Positions 5,285 to 17,200 of a DNA stretch of 64,000 bases are shown piece after piece. Source of the DNA: Pecten maximus (Eukaryota); assembly GCF_902652985.1 (NCBI RefSeq), contig NC_047020.1:14012001-14076000 (forward strand). The letters are read 5' to 3'. Numbering within the stretch: the first letter of the stretch is position 1; each line of letters starts with the position of its first letter. A program made the position numbers.

Positions 5285-8200
5285 TTTGGATTTAACATAA
5301 GTATTTATTTATTATATGCGTGCTTGCGACGATCTTTACCAATACCGGCGGCAAAAGTTGAAGCTTTCCACTGTTCCAAGCTCACTGCTTATACTAATGT
5401 CCAAATAATCCAATCCATGGTGAGCGTTCCCCTGATCATTCCTTTCTTTCTTTGAAATACGTTTCTCCTATGCCGTCGGTATTGGAAAAGATATAACCAT
5501 ACACTTGAAATAAGTAATTTGTACAAAAGTCGTAATTTAAAAGAGATATAAGGAAGATCAAAAGGAGGGGGGGGGGGGGAGGGGGGGGGGTTAGAATCTA
5601 TTTGAATCCTGAATGAATTCCTGAGTGTACATGAAAATGAGTTCGTTTTCTCGATCAGACAAGTTAGAATCTCCAAAGAGCAATAGATTTACGGTAAGGT
5701 GAATATATGTATTGAGATTACGAAATAGTGTTATTCTTTGGTCTACAACTAAATTGGCCCTAAATAAGTGATTTCTTAATGTACTGGCACGGTTCCTTAA
5801 ACGAGTATGTAAAATGTTATGTTCCCTTTCGCCATAGAAAAATAGTTCGGTAATTTATGTATATCTGTGTTGCGGATGGCATTTTTAAAGGCTGAAAGTG
5901 AAACAGTATGTCTTATGTTAAGGGGAACTGATTCCATTGTCTGATTGTAGAAGGAATGAAAGATTGATAGGAAGATTCTAGTCTGTTGTTTGGCAAAACA
6001 TAGTTTTCGGAATTGCAGAGATTGTGTGTGGAGTTATCAGAAACAAGACTAGGGAGTAGAGTGGTAAGGTAGCTAGGAGTAAAGTGATTATGTATTTTGT
6101 AAAACAGTAGTAGTTTTCTACGAGAACGACGCTGGGATAAAGGTTCCCAACCCGTTTCAGTATAAAGAGATTGTCTACTGGCATAAGAGGGTAGACCAGT
6201 GACAATGCGGCCAGCTTCTAGTTGTATTTTTTCTAATCTATCAGCGTCGGCTAAAGAACAGCCATCCCATGCAAAGTTCACAACACTATTTAAGGACAGT
6301 AAGAACGAAAGATCTATATATTCTATTCAGTGTTGTTCTATTTAGAGTATATTTTTACGTATATTTCGGTATAATACAATAATGCAATAACAAAGCTACT
6401 CTATACATATTTATAGTTATTATCAAACACACTGTAGTCTTCTCCTGTAAACACAAAAAGCAAACAAACGGGGAAAAGACAAGAAATACTTATTTGTCAA
6501 TTTCTTACACAGTCCCTGCATTCAAAATTTGAATTAACTTAAACATCCAAAGGAGCTTAAAAAGGTCATGTCATCAGGTGAATTTCATTAATTACGGCCA
6601 TGGCACTTCAAAATATAATGAAATTCTTTGCACACATAATCTACGATGTCCACTCACAGAAATATGTCAATCATGTCAACAAAATGTGCATCAGTGAAAA
6701 GTTACAAAATTTTACCTAGACCTTTAACTTTTATTTTTGTACCCGGTGTGTCCCGGCATATATTTTGTGAAGTGAACATTTTAGACCAAATTTCTTGTAA
6801 ATCGGACAATAAATACGAAAATTACCAGCCGGGCCATAATCAGAATATAGCGAAAATAAGAACATAATATCTATAAAGAAAATATTTAAACGATATAAAA
6901 ATATAAAACTTAATATTGTACGTAAATATTATATGGAATAAAAAGAAGAAAATAATACATAGAATATTTAGTTTGTGGTGTAGCATTGATACTGGCTACA
7001 TGGGAAAGGAATTAATATAAGCTCTAAGCTTGTTTTCCCATCCCATAAAAAATATTTTTATATGTATTGATTATTTTGATTAATGAATAAAATATTGTTT
7101 AAACTAATGTCTATTTCGCTGAGTAAGTTTTAACAGAATCACCAATCAAATATGTCACTTGTCCATCTAACAGAATTACATAAAATTCTGATGATGTCAC
7201 ATCCTACGTTGCAGAGGTCTTCATGCAGGTTCACTTCCTCGGGTTCGTCCAAACACTGAATTGTCGTCGCATAAGTCCATAGAAAGACTCCCTTACAAAA
7301 CAATAATTCATTGTAATAATATACGTTCAACGCTAGTGTAAAAATAGATTGTACAAAAGACACATACGATATCTACACCCTTCAATACACCTGGGAGTAA
7401 GATGACGTAGAGCCAAAATGATATTAACAGCACCAAAAAATTGTTTAAATTGTACTTATAAATATACACTCACGTAGTTGTTCAAAGTAGGGATGTTTAC
7501 GGAGCCTGGACGCTGAGATCCGTCGTTCCTTGTCCGGTTCAAGTAAATGTGCCACCAGATGATTAATTAAAGGAGGCGGATTCTTTAAGATAAAACAAAC
7601 TGTAAATAGTAACCGATGTTGTAGCTCTGTACGCTCTGAAAAGGCCGTAGCGAAATACTAACCCCTCAGCCTTACCCCTAGAAATGTTATTTCATTAGAT
7701 ATGCGATTAGCTGACGAGGAATCGACATGTTTTATAGCTATATTATAGACCGACAGAAGCTCGATATGATTCTTGTTGCTTTGGTTAGCCAGTCTGTTAC
7801 CTGGATTTGAGCTATTATCCCTTGCAGTAACTGACCGATGCTATGCATATCTCTTGCTTTGCCTTCCCAGATAAATCGTGTCAGGGGGTCGATTCCTTCT
7901 AGACGACATTCAGTCAGAAAATTTTCTGTGTAAATATTCAAAATTTCTTAACATAAGCAGCACGAGTTACCAAAAGCATACTACGTTCACACTAAAGTAT
8001 TGAATTAAACAGTTCTTTCTGTGCATATTTTATTATAAATACGCATGAGAATTAGAAAAAGCATATTTACACAAATACGTTTGTCGCATTTATATCCGTT
8101 ATATTTTGTGTTTGCTATTTTAGCTTTCATTTTATTCATATAACACATATGCATAAAACATAATTATGTAATATTTTCCGCGCTTTCTGTGTACATTTCC

Positions 8201-14200: not shown

Positions 14201-17200
14201 CCCCAAGTAGCTCTGGAACAATGAGCACCTTTCCTCCAAACTCCAGGTAAAACAGAAGCTCCTGATCAAGAAAACATTTTGACTTCCGCTGGGAAACAAA
14301 TTTTGAATAGTAAATATCTCAAGTCTTGTATATTACTAGTGTCATTACAATATACTTATCTGTTCACAGAGTGAAAATAAGTGCTTGGACAGTAGCCTAA
14401 GTAATATTATTCCATTATCATGCCGTTCATTAAATGTTATGTATTGTTCAGTCATATATCTATACATATCATCTGCGAGATCATTGTGCTTTATTTATTA
14501 TTAAATTGTTATATTTAGAAAACAATAAATTTCAGATCAGAACACAGGACAGCTAGTTATATATAGACCAGAACTGTCACAGCTTGTTATATTTAGACCG
14601 GAATACATGAAAGCTTGTTATATTTAGAACAGAACACATGACTGCTTGATATATTCAGAAAAGAACATATGACAGCTTGTTATATCTAGAAAAGAACACA
14701 TGACTGCTTGTTATATTTAGAACAGAACATATGACTGCTTGTTATATTTAGAACAGAACATATGACTGCTTGTTATATTTAGAACAGAACATATGACTGC
14801 TTGTTATATATAGACCAGAATACATGACAGCTTCAGCTTGTTATATTTAGAACAGAATACATAACAGCTTGTTATATTTAGAACAGAACATATGACAGCT
14901 CGTTATATTTAGAACAGAACACATGACAGCTTGTTATATTTAGAACAGAACACATGACAGCTTGTTATATTTAGAACAGAACACATGACAGCTCGTTATA
15001 TTTAGAACAGAACATATGACTGCTTGTTATATTAAAGACAGTTAAGTCAGAGAAACAGCTATGTACATTATGTATATGAACTTGCCTCAAGCATGAGAAA
15101 AGTAACAGCATTGTGGTCGTCACATCCACGACATAACGTCATTCTTCCAAATTGATCCTCTGTGAAGTATTTCCAATACTGGTAATGTCGGTTCAATAGG
15201 AATCCTTCTTCTGTAGATATGTTGTGCAGTCTCTATTAGATAAAAAAAATGAAGTAAAAACATGAATCAATTAATAAATAAAACACCCTTATTCACAACA
15301 TTTTGCGGAAGGAGAATTGATTTTTCCAAAACAAACGTTTGGCTTTTTCAATTGGGCGTACAGTAATTCTGATGATTGACTTTTATCTGCCATTATTAAT
15401 TAAACCATTCAAACTTGAATCTGTTATCATCCCATGTTCCTTTTATTTCGTTTTTATCATAAAATAGCGGTTTAAAAGAAACCCTTAAGCATCCAAATAA
15501 TAAGTCACTTGAAGTATTTCCAAAACTCCTTCAAATGGTTCGAATGCCAAAATTATCACCAAAATTATTTGATTCCGAGAACAAAATATAAAAACAGGTC
15601 TTGATATTTTCCAATTTTGCACTGTGCTGTACTTTATGTGTCGCAGTGATAATAACTATGAAAAAAAGTTTTACGACTTTGCTATGAAATGTTTAAATAC
15701 ATAGCAATGATTATTTGGTTAAATTTTGAAAGTTAAAATTTAAAAGAAATTGAAAGTTAATTTTAAAATAAACACGTGCAAATCGGAATAATTGTAGAAA
15801 GTCCTTTCAGAAATGTTAATTGATATTCACGAACTAACCTGGTCTCTTAACAATCCTCTTTGACCTCCGATTGTTTTCCGCTTTTTGAGAAAACTTCTGA
15901 CGTAATATGGACTTGTTCCATAAATCAGCGGTACACCTTTTTTGCCATGTAGATCTACAACGGTCCCTGGTTTCATTTTGTTTCTGATCCTGTGAATGTT
16001 TTCTTGCCTGATTGGTTTCATTGAGACGATACGATCAATGTGATATGTGAGGAATGCATCTTGTTGTTCGGAATCCATTTGGACAGCATTTGAACCTGGA
16101 CCGTGGGAGTGTGCTTCCTCGGGAATAGCCAAAGCGGCGTCGCCGGATAAACTTGGTACAGGATCGGAAGAGTTTGCAGCTACAAGAACATCACAAGGAC
16201 GACCGGCTACAAAATCAAGGGGAGGTGCAGCTTTTTCAGGAACAGCTACAACACAATCACCCGGAAGACTGGCTTCGGAGCCAGGAGGGTGTACAGCTAC
16301 TGTAAGAACAGCTAAGTCGACATTACCAGGAGGACCGGCTACAGAATCGGGATAGCTTGCACGCACTATTGGGACAAGTACCTCTTCATCCTCTCTGACT
16401 GACGTTGTTGGGGACAGCTGGTTTTCATTTGTCAGAAGGGCATCAGCCGCCCGTCCAGAGTACTTACCATGTATGTGTTCAAAGTGGGTGTGATTGGACG
16501 AATTCCAGCATCATAATATGATATCGCTACCTCCTTCAGACTGTTTGAAATTTTGCTCTTTTCGGTAGACACAGAATGTCTACGTAAGTTTGTTTGCTTT
16601 GAAAAGGGTAACAAAGCATTCCATAACATTCCACTCATAATTCTTTGTAGTTCAAACACAATACAAACGATCACACATGTCATTTGTAAGCTGAGTCCCG
16701 ATTCGATGGATGATGTGATCTGGTCTATCACAGTGCTATTTTTCAGGTTTTTGTGACTTTGCTCATAATCTTCGGTGGTGTTTTGTATGATTCCTGCTAT
16801 AGATATCATCTTATCGGTCTGTTGTGATCGCATCACTGCCAGCCATCGAAAACATTCATCTCGAAATCTCAAAATATTTTCCATTTCGCCATGTTGAAAT
16901 TTCGCCGAGGCGTAATTTCCGCTAAATGCTTTTGGTGACATGCTTTTCGTACTGGTTATAGTTGTTTCCAACCTGTCTCCAAGTAAAAAATTCCTTTTTG
17001 CATCAGTCTGAGGAAAATTTTTGAGACGTTCCACCGGATCCACGAGAACAGTTTCATCCATGGAAATACCTGGTGATTGTCCGTCAGTGCGTGCACACAT
17101 AGAGTCAGCATCAAAGTCTCTACCAAGGACGTCAGCATCATCTTCCAAACGATCTTCAGGTATATCGGTTTTGATAAATGGATTTTTGATTGGAATGATG

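What the first reader, a model, noticed from the sequence alone, without database searches (positions are those of the whole stretch)
7474..15232. Catalytically dead NIK/MAP3K14-like pseudokinase assembled from tiny exons
Seen: six exons splice in frame with no stops. The Gly loop is TEDQFG, VAIK is FLMLE (no Lys), the catalytic loop is ILGGIG (no His/Asp) and DFG is absent, yet structural motifs persist (GIETLHS, DMHSIG, R.SA..L..HPYF). Knowledge: the closest match I recognise is NIK (GVLLTE-KL, FRAEEL, IVPLYGAVREG, GLEYLHSRRILHGD). From memory, its introns fall at the equivalent positions and phases, including a 105-nt subdomain VII exon; this needs verifying. Inference: a retained scaffold or decoy paralogue that may modulate NF-kB signalling in a mollusc. 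I know of no described NIK-derived pseudokinase.
Basis: partly seen in the sequence, partly recalled or inferred. Interest (0 to 1): 0.75.

Follow-up and report, generated by a model that had tools for sequence, protein, structure and literature searches.

The report
Scallop-only dead kinase gene
This is a real, intact king-scallop gene for a kinase-shaped protein that has lost every catalytic residue and is shared only with one other scallop; it is an ordinary lineage-specific pseudokinase with no demonstrable tie to NIK.

Summary
The six exons are real. They lie on the minus strand with compatible phases. They are six of the eight coding exons of the public model XP_033742610.1, "uncharacterized protein LOC117329033", Pecten maximus, 356 aa.

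The protein has a very divergent kinase-like domain: Pfam Pkinase 26 bits, below the 31.7 cut-off, E 7.4e-6. The beta3 Lys, the HRD Asp, the catalytic-loop Lys and Asn and the DFG Asp are all missing.

Among 1.84 billion representatives the only true relative is the Mizuhopecten yessoensis gene LOC110462689, at 54-57% identity, with the same motif losses. Open frames survive in both genera. In a neutral simulation only 3 of 2000 replicates stayed stop-free. This points to a retained pseudokinase, not a decaying pseudogene.

The NIK attribution is not supported. NIK never appeared among the hits shown in nine comparisons with solved structures. The best hits were SnRK2, ASK1/MAP3K5, MAPK, STK10 and AMPK-type kinases. 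Intron comparison with MAP3K14 could not be done.

The gene probably extends upstream into a 532-aa acidic ORF. I searched exon by exon and did not join the exons.

The parts
15839..16078 (-). First annotated coding exon (aa 1-80 of XP_033742610.1). The donor is CAG|GTTAGT, phase 0.
   Evidence: tblastn 80/80 identical; flanks; no Pfam or solved-structure relative
15086..15232 (-). It encodes beta1-beta3 with a degraded acidic Gly loop (TEDQFG) and Leu at the beta3-Lys position (FLMLE). The intron that follows is GC-AG.
   Evidence: alignment to SRK2E places Lys opposite Leu; 27 of 49 residues identical to Mizuhopecten
14153..14288 (-). It encodes helix C, beta4, beta5 and the hinge, and is the best conserved block.
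   Evidence: 34 of 45 residues identical to Mizuhopecten
10723..10860 (-). It encodes helices D and E and the start of the former catalytic loop (LGG in place of HRD).
   Evidence: Pfam Pkinase positions 98-120, E 0.23, for this exon alone; 14 of 14 solved-structure hits are kinases; alignment
9956..10060 (-). It encodes the rest of the dead catalytic loop (Gly and Met where Lys and Asn should be) and the former DFG region (QFFP). It is the least conserved of the six.
   Evidence: 16 of 34 identical; no Pfam or solved-structure hit on its own
7801..7925 (-). It encodes the activation-segment remnant and helix F (DMHSIG).
   Evidence: 21 of 41 identical
7474..7582 (-). It encodes helices H-I and the end of the kinase domain (RISASRLRKHPYF).
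   Evidence: Pfam Pkinase positions 236-263 of 263, E 0.014, for this exon alone; 27 of 27 solved-structure hits are kinases
7221..7291 (-). Last coding exon (aa 334-356 plus the stop). The tail is poorly conserved.
   Evidence: tblastn 22/22; acceptor AG at 7293-7292 read; 3 of 22 identical to Mizuhopecten
16432..18030 (-). Upstream 532-aa ORF, acidic and with an internal duplication. It is a probable 5' part or alternative 5' exon of the same gene. Its residues 450-522 are homologous to the first 76 residues of the Mizuhopecten protein, and that homology ends at a consensus donor.
   Evidence: no Pfam family; exact sequence not in the protein collection

Best explanation
The region holds six internal coding exons of an intact, spliced, minus-strand gene of the king scallop Pecten maximus (RefSeq LOC117329033). 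The gene encodes a small protein (356 aa as annotated, probably longer at the N-terminus). Its only recognisable domain is a very divergent protein-kinase fold with no catalytic machinery.

Shown:
- The gene structure.
- The loss of the beta3 Lys, the HRD Asp, the catalytic-loop Lys and Asn and the DFG Asp, and the retention of only one of the three Gly-loop glycines.
- The same losses in the Mizuhopecten yessoensis orthologue, so the domain was already dead before these two genera split.
- Open frames and splice sites kept in both.

Inferred: the protein cannot transfer phosphate and most likely does not bind ATP in the canonical way. It has been kept by selection as a non-catalytic binding module, either a scaffold, allosteric partner or decoy for another protein, most plausibly an active kinase or a kinase substrate. 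The conserved helix C / beta4 / beta5 face of the N-lobe and the helix E/F core (exon 2, 76% identical) would supply the binding surface.

Its parent kinase family cannot be resolved from sequence. It is a pectinid-restricted orphan, not a demonstrable NIK derivative.
For: Gene model:
- Exon 3 alone retrieved XP_033742610.1 at 100% identity.
- tblastn places its eight coding pieces at 16078-15839, the six reader exons, and about 7291-7224.
- Splice signals comprise 6 GT-AG introns plus 1 GC-AG intron; exons are 40-50% G+C against 28-39% in introns.

Kinase fold:
- Pfam Pkinase E 7.4e-6.
- The two exon-wise Pfam hits are collinear with the profile.
- All 60 of the 60 solved-structure hits shown are kinases.
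- Atlas features score 0.96; the Atlas's own model has pTM 0.66 and TM 0.53-0.65 to ten kinase clusters.

Dead site:
- The alignment to SRK2E puts Leu at the beta3 Lys, and L-G-G, G and M at H-R-D, K and N.
- There is no Asp between LLLD and GIDP.
- Mizuhopecten has F at the Lys position, LGV in place of HRD, and HLFP in place of DFG.

Retention:
- 145 of 253 residues of the six exons are identical between genera, with only 5 gapped positions within them.
- In a neutral substitution model run exon by exon to 57% identity, 3 of 2000 replicates stayed free of stops (mean 5.6 stops).

Restriction:
- 3 hits at E<=0.001 among 1,835,955,588 representatives, one of them spurious.
- 2 of 1881 and 2 of 615 word-sharing candidates passed.

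Context from papers (passages seen):
- A pseudokinase is defined by loss of the VAIK Lys, the HRD Asp or the DFG Asp, and TRIBs have acidic degraded Gly loops (PMC4718504).
- Bivalve and urchin kinomes contain 28 and 21 unclassifiable lineage-specific kinases (PMC4883820).
Against: - There is no expression evidence of any kind. Both proteins are computational gene models, which are open by construction.
- The Pfam score is below the curated cut-off for both proteins: 26 and 20.8 bits against 31.7.
- My own structure prediction failed (mean pLDDT 31.9), so the fold rests on the Atlas's model and on sequence.
- dN/dS could not be computed because no Mizuhopecten coding DNA was reachable. The simulation ignores indels and rate variation and puts all change on one lineage.
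- The binding-module mechanism is inference only. No partner is known.
- 54-57% identity between two scallops suggests fast evolution, which also fits relaxed constraint.
Confidence: 0.72

Rival explanations
1. One reading: a paralogue derived from NIK/MAP3K14 (or the NIK/Cot clade) that has lost catalysis and acts as a decoy or scaffold in NF-kB signalling.
For: - Weak, recurrent hits to a MAP3K, though to ASK1/MAP3K5 rather than NIK: E 0.006, 0.02, 0.67.
- STK10, a STE20-type kinase, also recurs.
- A MAP3K8 (Cot) cluster is one of ten structural neighbour rows (TM 0.59).
Whether it equals an exon of MAP3K14 is untested.
Against: - NIK is not among the hits shown in any of the nine kinase-domain comparisons with solved structures, nor in the search with the first coding exon.
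- For the Mizuhopecten protein the whole list (19 of 19) is visible and has no NIK.
- Kinases of other groups score as well or better: SnRK2, AMPK, SIK3, MARK, CDKL3, MAPK, PKA.
- Nothing in the locus bears on NF-kB.
- The main text of the oyster kinome paper does not mention NIK or MAP3K14 (0 occurrences).
Confidence: 0.07
2. A decaying or mis-annotated pseudogene: a former kinase gene drifting neutrally, with no function, whose open frame is an accident or an artefact of gene prediction.
For: - All catalytic motifs are gone.
- Identity between two scallops is only 54-57%. The former catalytic loop and the C-terminal tail differ freely: exon 4 has 16 of 34 identical, the last exon 3 of 22.
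- No expression data. No paper mentions either locus (0 papers).
- Retroelements and satellites are abundant around it.
Against: - Seven introns have usable splice signals and there are no stops in 250 whole codons.
- The orthologue aligns across all six exons with one 6-residue gap.
- Only 3 of 2000 neutral replicates stay open at this divergence.
- Conservation is patterned, not uniform: exon 2 is 76% identical against 47% for exon 4.
- The same motif losses occur in both genera, so the dead state has persisted since before their split.
Confidence: 0.12
3. An atypical but active kinase that uses displaced catalytic residues, as WNK does with its lysine.
For: Such exceptions exist, and activity cannot be ruled out from sequence alone (PMC4718504 passages). 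A helix-C Glu candidate is kept in both species (alignment).
Against: Not one residue but all of the Lys, HRD Asp, catalytic-loop Lys and Asn and DFG Asp are missing. The replacing residues differ between the two species (GGIGGG against GVINDR), which is not what a relocated active site would show. The Gly loop carries two acidic residues in both.
Confidence: 0.03

Closest known systems
Mizuhopecten yessoensis LOC110462689 (XP_021372460.1 / XP_021372458.1; UniProt A0A210PXU3, 'Protein kinase domain-containing protein')
   Same: This is the orthologue. It is 54-57% identical and collinear over all six exons, has the same loss of every catalytic motif, and has the same conserved helix C / beta4 / beta5 block.
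   Different: It is annotated with about 160 more N-terminal residues. The first 76 of these match the end of the 532-aa ORF upstream of the Pecten gene. It has a 6-residue deletion in the activation-segment region and an unrelated C-terminal tail.
Canonical Ser/Thr kinases with solved structures (SnRK2/SRK2E, ASK1/MAP3K5, p38-gamma/MAPK12, STK10, AMPK, SIK3, CDKL3)
   Same: The kinase fold and subdomain order are shared. Local similarity covers helix C to helix E and helices H-I, at E 7e-6 to 0.7.
   Different: No single family is consistently first. SnRK2 leads for Pecten but is absent from the Mizuhopecten list. All of these are active enzymes with intact motifs.
NIK / MAP3K14
   Same: Only that both are kinase-fold proteins. 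A MAP3K8 cluster (the sister 'Cot') is one of ten structural neighbour rows.
   Different: NIK never came back as a named hit. The annotated scallop protein is 356 aa with short flanks. NIK's long regulatory flanks (recalled, not from a call) have no counterpart that I could detect. Intron positions were not comparable here.
Pseudokinases with fully degraded sites that work as binding modules (TRIB1-3, VRK3, STRAD-alpha)
   Same: This is a likeness in how it probably works, not in descent. It has a degraded acidic Gly loop like the TRIBs, a lost DFG, and a retained kinase-fold core (PMC4718504 passages).
   Different: None of these came back as a hit in any search. The scallop protein also lacks the beta3 Lys. 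No partner or extra motif (such as the TRIB COP1-binding tail) is known.
Lineage-specific unclassifiable kinases of invertebrate kinomes (28 in Crassostrea gigas, 21 in sea urchin)
   Same: The situation is the same: kinase-domain proteins with too little similarity to place in a family, restricted to one lineage, function unknown (PMC4883820 passages).
   Different: No oyster relative was detectable at E<=0.001. That paper's main text does not use the word pseudokinase (0 occurrences).

Membership tests
Eukaryotic protein kinase fold (Pfam PF00069 Pkinase) | Match to the family profile at or above the curated gathering score | tested here: not met
   P0001 scores 26.0 bits and P0002 20.8 bits against a cut-off of 31.7. 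The E-values (7.4e-6 and 2.8e-4) are nevertheless significant for a one-protein search.
Eukaryotic protein kinase fold (Pfam PF00069 Pkinase) | Subdomains in the canonical order along the sequence | tested here: met
   Exon 3 maps to profile positions 98-120 and exon 6 to 236-263 of 263. The whole protein maps at 62-120 plus a second stretch. The SRK2E alignment runs from the Gly loop to the catalytic loop, and helices H-I align separately.
Eukaryotic protein kinase fold (Pfam PF00069 Pkinase) | Bilobal kinase fold in three dimensions | tested here: inconclusive
   The Atlas's own model (pTM 0.66, pLDDT 0.63) has TM 0.53-0.65 to ten kinase clusters. My AlphaFold2 run on the two-sequence alignment failed (pLDDT 31.9), so no Foldseek search was made.
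Pseudokinase (sequence definition) | Beta3 ('VAIK') lysine absent | tested here: met
   Leu (Pecten) and Phe (Mizuhopecten) align with the Lys of SRK2E. There is no Lys in the strand.
Pseudokinase (sequence definition) | Catalytic ('HRD') aspartate absent | tested here: met
   LGG (Pecten) and LGV (Mizuhopecten) align with HRD. The catalytic-loop Lys and Asn are replaced by Gly/Asn and Met.
Pseudokinase (sequence definition) | Cation-binding ('DFG') aspartate absent | tested here: met
   Neither species has an Asp between the LLD after the catalytic loop and the DPLTR motif. QFFP and HLFP stand at the expected spacing. The position rests on spacing, not on a tool alignment.
Pseudokinase (sequence definition) | No phosphotransfer activity or nucleotide binding | not testable with these tools
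   This needs the purified protein. Sequence alone is not a reliable predictor (PMC4718504).
NIK / MAP3K14 | NIK returns as the best or a leading named hit for the protein, its profile or its exons | tested here: not met
   There is no NIK among the 60 of 109 hits shown, the 60 of 232 shown, 19 of 19, or 47 of 47 exon-wise hits. NIK could still be among the unshown weaker hits.
NIK / MAP3K14 | Placement inside the NIK/Cot clade in a kinase phylogeny | not testable with these tools
   No NIK or Cot sequence could be obtained. No tool fetches a protein by name, and none came back as a hit. Only two family members exist for the query side.
NIK / MAP3K14 | Introns at the same positions and phases as MAP3K14 | not testable with these tools
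   The scallop positions and phases are established. No MAP3K14 gene structure is reachable, and I did not use recalled coordinates.
NIK / MAP3K14 | Long regulatory regions on both sides of the kinase domain (feature recalled, not from a call) | tested here: inconclusive
   The annotated protein has about 95 residues before and about 20 after the domain. The first exon has no relative among solved structures (4 chance-level hits). The gene may extend upstream into an acidic 532-aa ORF with no Pfam family.
MAP3K / STE group in general | Consistent best similarity to STE-group kinases | tested here: inconclusive
   ASK1/MAP3K5 and STK10 recur for both orthologues, but at E 0.006-0.7. They are interleaved with CAMK-like, CMGC and AGC kinases.
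SnRK2 / CAMK-like | Best similarity reproducible in the orthologue | tested here: not met
   SRK2E is first for Pecten (E 6.9e-6), helped by a match in the non-conserved C-terminal tail. It is absent from all 19 hits of Mizuhopecten.

The most novel reading that the evidence does not exclude
A scallop-restricted orphan pseudokinase family has lost every catalytic residue yet been kept under selection since before Pecten and Mizuhopecten split. It forms the C-terminal module of a larger protein whose N-terminal half is a fast-evolving acidic repeat region (the 532-aa ORF). It descends from a MAP3K-type (STE-group) kinase and serves as a decoy or allosteric regulator in bivalve stress or immune signalling.
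Probability: 0.12. Interest if true: 0.5.

Novelty: new member of a known kind. Interest (0 to 1): 0.28.

Why it matters
Pseudokinases are a well-established class, and lineage-specific, unclassifiable kinase-like genes are already known from oyster and sea-urchin kinomes. This gene therefore adds one more example rather than a new principle.

Its modest value has three parts.
- It is an extreme case: all three defining residues are gone, together with the catalytic-loop Lys and Asn and two of the three Gly-loop glycines, yet the gene is retained in two genera.
- It has only two detectable members among 1.84 billion representative proteins. That makes it a clean test case for how fast a dead kinase fold can drift while still being kept.
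- The public Pecten model is probably truncated at its 5' end.

It gives no handle on NF-kB signalling as things stand.

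Tried and rejected
1. Exon-by-exon searches. Pfam found only exon 3 (E 0.23) and exon 6 (E 0.014), so 2 of 6 exons. Against solved structures, exons 3 and 6 gave only kinases (14 of 14 and 27 of 27), while exons 1, 2, 4 and 5 gave 3, 2, 0 and 1 chance-level non-kinase hits. The exons are too short to classify the domain.

2. The joined-exon search was left out. I never concatenated the exons.

3. AlphaFold2 on the two-sequence alignment gave mean pLDDT 31.9 and pTM 0.29, which is unusable. 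I therefore ran no Foldseek search (0 of 3 jobs used) and did not spend the second folding job, because no deeper alignment could be built.

4. P0003, the third hit of the representative search (E 3.5e-7), is rejected. It is a bacterial-type repeat protein with a Por secretion tail and no kinase domain, and it matches through five tandem repeats at 26-28% identity.

5. The SnRK2 top hit is rejected as a clue to origin because it is not reproduced by the orthologue.

6. The last homologue search, restricted to residues 85-340 at E<=10, brought no further kinase (2 of 615 candidates). No phylogeny, deeper profile or deeper fold alignment was therefore possible.

7. An exact look-up of the 532-aa upstream ORF with two start variants found nothing in the collection.

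8. Literature searches:
- 0 papers for either LOC number.
- The listings (15 of 119 and 12 of 260 papers shown) contained no mollusc NIK-derived pseudokinase.
- A Pecten-Mizuhopecten divergence date was not obtained. It sits in a figure of PMC11439060 (passages only).
- PMC7586955 and PMC13519141 were seen only as the start of their abstracts in a search listing.

9. Rfam at gathering threshold and ARAGORN over the window found 0 families and 0 tRNAs.

10. Not checked:
- Genome contigs was not scanned because it holds only bacteria and archaea.
The kinase lists of the oyster kinome paper might show whether bivalves have a NIK.
- dN/dS, expression and MAP3K14 intron positions.

11. The window contains no N, so there was nothing to leave unfilled. 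I do not take this contig for human: its exons are identical to a Pecten maximus reference protein.

Full report
WHAT IS THERE

The window is AT-rich animal DNA with no N. Between 7474 and 15232, six G+C-richer stretches (40-50% G+C against 28-39% in the gaps) lie on the minus strand. Reading the minus strand gives these exons:
- E1: 15232-15086, 147 nt
- E2: 14288-14153, 136 nt
- E3: 10860-10723, 138 nt
- E4: 10060-9956, 105 nt
- E5: 7925-7801, 125 nt
- E6: 7582-7474, 109 nt

Their phases are 0 to 0, 0 to 1, 1 to 1, 1 to 1, 1 to 0 and 0 to 1, so each exon hands the next one the phase it needs. Five of the six exons end at a GT donor and all six follow an AG acceptor. The intron after E1 has the strong non-canonical donor AG|GCAAGT, making it a GC-AG intron. 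The 250 whole codons hold no stop. The three split codons each begin with G, so they cannot be stops.

HOW I SEARCHED

I did that: the exons were never concatenated, in a call or in a script.

Exon by exon, Pfam recognises only E3 (Pkinase positions 98-120, E 0.23) and E6 (positions 236-263 of 263, E 0.014). The other four give nothing. Against solved structures:
- E3 gives 14 hits, all kinases.
- E6 gives 27 hits, all kinases.
- E1 gives 3 hits, none a kinase.
- E2 gives 2 hits, none a kinase.
- E4 gives 0 hits.
- E5 gives 1 hit, not a kinase.

The two informative exons fall in the right order and at the right places of a kinase domain.

Searching longer proteins with E3 alone returned one protein at 100% identity: P0001, which is XP_033742610.1, 'uncharacterized protein LOC117329033 [Pecten maximus]', 356 aa. 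The contig is scallop, not human. For everything that needs the full length I used this public protein by its id.

THE DOMAIN

P0001 matches Pfam Pkinase at E 7.4e-6 but only 26 bits, below the curated 31.7. All 60 of the 60 solved-structure hits shown (of 109 at E<=1) are protein kinases. The ESM Atlas holds the sequence. Its own model has pTM 0.66 and its structural neighbours are ten kinase clusters at TM 0.53-0.65. The feature search scores 0.96, with 10 of 10 family-bearing hits in one clan. My own AlphaFold2 run on the only alignment I could build (two sequences) failed (pLDDT 31.9). I therefore made no Foldseek search.

THE DEAD SITE

In the profile alignment to SRK2E:
- The Gly loop aligns with TEDQFG, in which one of three glycines is kept and two acidic residues are inserted.
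- The beta3 Lys aligns with Leu.
- H-R-D aligns with L-G-G.
- The catalytic-loop Lys aligns with Gly and the Asn with Met.

After the following LLLD there is no Asp for 38 residues. The DFG aspartate is therefore gone; QFFP stands at the expected spacing, which is my reading and not a tool alignment. Structural landmarks remain: a helix-C Glu candidate, helix E (GIETLHS), the helix-F Asp (DMHSIG) and the helix H-I Arg with HPYF. By the sequence definition quoted in PMC4718504 (passages) this is a pseudokinase three times over.

RELATIVES

- The word-indexed search found 2 proteins at E<=0.001 among 1881 candidates.
- The exhaustive HMMER search of 1,835,955,588 representatives found 3.
- A search restricted to residues 85-340 found 2 of 615 candidates at E<=10.

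The true relative is P0002/P0004, LOC110462689 of Mizuhopecten yessoensis (480/481 aa, 54-57% identical). The third hit, P0003, is a bacterial-type repeat protein with a Por secretion tail and no kinase domain. It matches through five repeats, so I reject it. Representatives stand for 50%-identity clusters, so close pectinid orthologues could hide behind P0001 or P0002. However, the 90%-cluster search saw none either.

The Mizuhopecten protein shows the same losses: F at the Lys position, LGV for HRD, M for the Asn and HLFP for DFG. Its replacement residues are different, so the site was dead before the genera split and has drifted since.

Identity per exon:
- first coding exon: 30 of 80
- E1: 27 of 49
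- E2: 34 of 45
- E3: 26 of 45
- E4: 16 of 34
- E5: 21 of 41
- E6: 20 of 36
- last exon: 3 of 22

The best-kept block (E2) is helix C through beta5 and the hinge. The worst of the six (E4) is the former catalytic loop and DFG region.

GENE OR PSEUDOGENE

I could not compute dN/dS because no Mizuhopecten coding DNA is reachable. As a substitute I let random substitutions (half of them transitions) accumulate in each exon separately until protein identity fell to 57%. Only 3 of 2000 replicates had no stop, and the mean was 5.6 stops. The model ignores indels and puts all change on one lineage. Both proteins are gene predictions, so this is supportive rather than decisive. Together with intact splice signals and patterned conservation, I take the gene as retained by selection.

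IS IT NIK-LIKE?

This is the part of the finding that rests on memory, and it did not survive.
- For P0001 the leading solved-structure hits are SnRK2/SRK2E (E 6.9e-6), SAPK10, MAP kinases, ASK1/MAP3K5 (0.006), AMPK, SIK3, PKA, MARK and STK10.
- For the two-species profile the picture is the same.
- For P0002 all 19 hits are visible: CDKL3, MAPK12, ASK1/MAP3K5, STK10 and one non-kinase.

NIK is in none of these lists, in none of the 47 exon-wise hits, and not among the 4 hits of the first coding exon. It may sit among the unshown weaker hits, but then it is not the closest.

SnRK2 owes part of its score to a match in the unconserved C-terminal tail and vanishes for the orthologue. What recurs in both species is ASK1/MAP3K5 and STK10. 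These are weak pointers to the STE group, to which MAP3Ks belong (group assignment recalled). One Atlas row is MAP3K8 (row 10, TM 0.59). That leaves a MAP3K-type origin possible but unproven.

The intron argument is untested. I have the scallop positions and phases but no MAP3K14 gene structure, and I did not use remembered ones.

I could not obtain any NIK sequence. No tool fetches a protein by name, and NIK did not come back as a hit. The protein I had in mind as comparator is human NIK (MAP3K14) and its solved kinase-domain structures.

HOW IT PROBABLY WORKS

Shown: a kinase fold without any catalytic residue, kept in two genera. Inferred: no phosphotransfer and probably no canonical ATP binding, with the caveat of PMC4718504 that binding cannot be read reliably from sequence. 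The most likely role is that of a binding module, as in other fully degraded pseudokinases. TRIBs, whose Gly loop is likewise acidic and degraded, recruit substrates to a ligase. STRAD-alpha allosterically activates a partner kinase (passages). The strongly conserved helix C / beta4 / beta5 face is the surface that many kinases use for regulatory contacts (general knowledge), so I favour an allosteric partner or decoy acting through that face. This is a likeness in mechanism only. None of those families came back as a hit.

GENE EXTENT

The Pecten model is probably incomplete at its 5' end.
- A 532-aa ORF (18030-16432, minus strand; acidic, with an internal duplication, no Pfam family) ends 354 nt upstream of the annotated ATG.
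- Residues 450-522 of that ORF match the first 76 residues of the Mizuhopecten protein (34% identity, E 3e-10).
- That match ends exactly at the only strong donor in the last 270 nt of the ORF (ATG|GTAAGT, phase 0, first intron base 16467).
- The frame of the annotated ATG is open upstream to 16510 and overlaps the end of the ORF in another frame.

An intron, or a one-base frame difference, may link the two. I could not decide which, and the exact ORF is not in the protein collection.

CONTEXT AND NOVELTY

- No paper mentions either locus (0 papers).
- The listings showed no NIK-derived pseudokinase in molluscs.
- The oyster kinome paper reports 28 kinases that could not be classified and cites 21 urchin-specific ones. 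Its main text never mentions NIK or MAP3K14 (passages).

Lineage-specific orphan kinase-like genes are thus an expected feature of invertebrate genomes. This is a new, unusually degraded member of a known kind. It is already present in public annotation as an uncharacterised protein, and its pseudokinase nature is not described in the literature I could search.

THE VIRUS-LIKE STRETCH (description only)

On the minus strand, ORFs at 42555-43349 (no family), 41309-42982 (reverse transcriptase, RVT_1), 40655-41260 (weak RVT_3 and Dam-like matches, both below cut-off) and 39306-40436 (tyrosine recombinase, Phage_integrase) have the order of a DIRS-like retrotransposon.

A second, related and more fragmented copy lies at about 25614-29876. 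tblastx gives 40 pieces and blastn gives 3 pieces at 65% identity; only outer bounds were kept. It includes an RVT_1 ORF at 25590-26477 and an RVT_3/Dam-like ORF at 27506-28009.

I did not map or count breaks and built nothing from these copies.

VERDICT

- It is an ordinary, if extreme, lineage-restricted pseudokinase gene.
- Interest 0.28.

Noticed in passing
window 16432-18030 (-): A 532-aa acidic ORF with an internal duplication of roughly 100 residues and no Pfam family lies directly upstream of the pseudokinase gene. Its last ~70 residues are homologous to the N-terminus of the Mizuhopecten orthologue, and that homology ends at a consensus splice donor. The public Pecten model is therefore probably 5'-truncated.
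   Followed up: partly
window 39306-43349 (-): A DIRS-like retrotransposon. In order, its ORFs carry no family, reverse transcriptase (RVT_1), a weak RNase-H-like/Dam-like match, and tyrosine recombinase (Phage_integrase). This is the virus-like stretch the operators mention, and it is described only.
   Followed up: partly
window about 25590-30125 (-): A second, more fragmented copy related to the DIRS-like element: 40 tblastx pieces, 3 blastn pieces at 65% identity, outer bounds 25614-29876. It includes an RVT_1 ORF and an RVT_3/Dam-like ORF.
   Followed up: partly
window 51215-53140 (-): A 641-aa ORF with no Pfam family. It has an acidic N-terminal run of short repeats (a 42-bp DNA period) followed by three copies of a ~50-residue unit. 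It may be a single-exon gene or a repeat artefact.
   Followed up: no
The intron also holds a 31-bp tandem array of 16 copies at 14529-15033.
   Followed up: yes
The open frames they create on the minus strand are repeat artefacts.
   Followed up: no
window 19176-19488, 20545-22273, 26695-27086, 36666-38206, 54690-56104, 58657-59249: The window contains many satellite arrays, with periods of 10/20, 46, 46, 28, 35 and 210 bp. The 28-bp array (55 copies) generates spurious ORFs of up to 510 aa. The arrays explain the strong local GC-skew swings.
   Followed up: no
protein P0003 (not in the window): The exhaustive protein search reported a bacterial-type repeat protein at E 3.5e-7 against the pseudokinase. 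The score comes from five tandem repeats each matching weakly. This shows that repeat proteins can pass the E-value filter as false relatives.
   Followed up: yes
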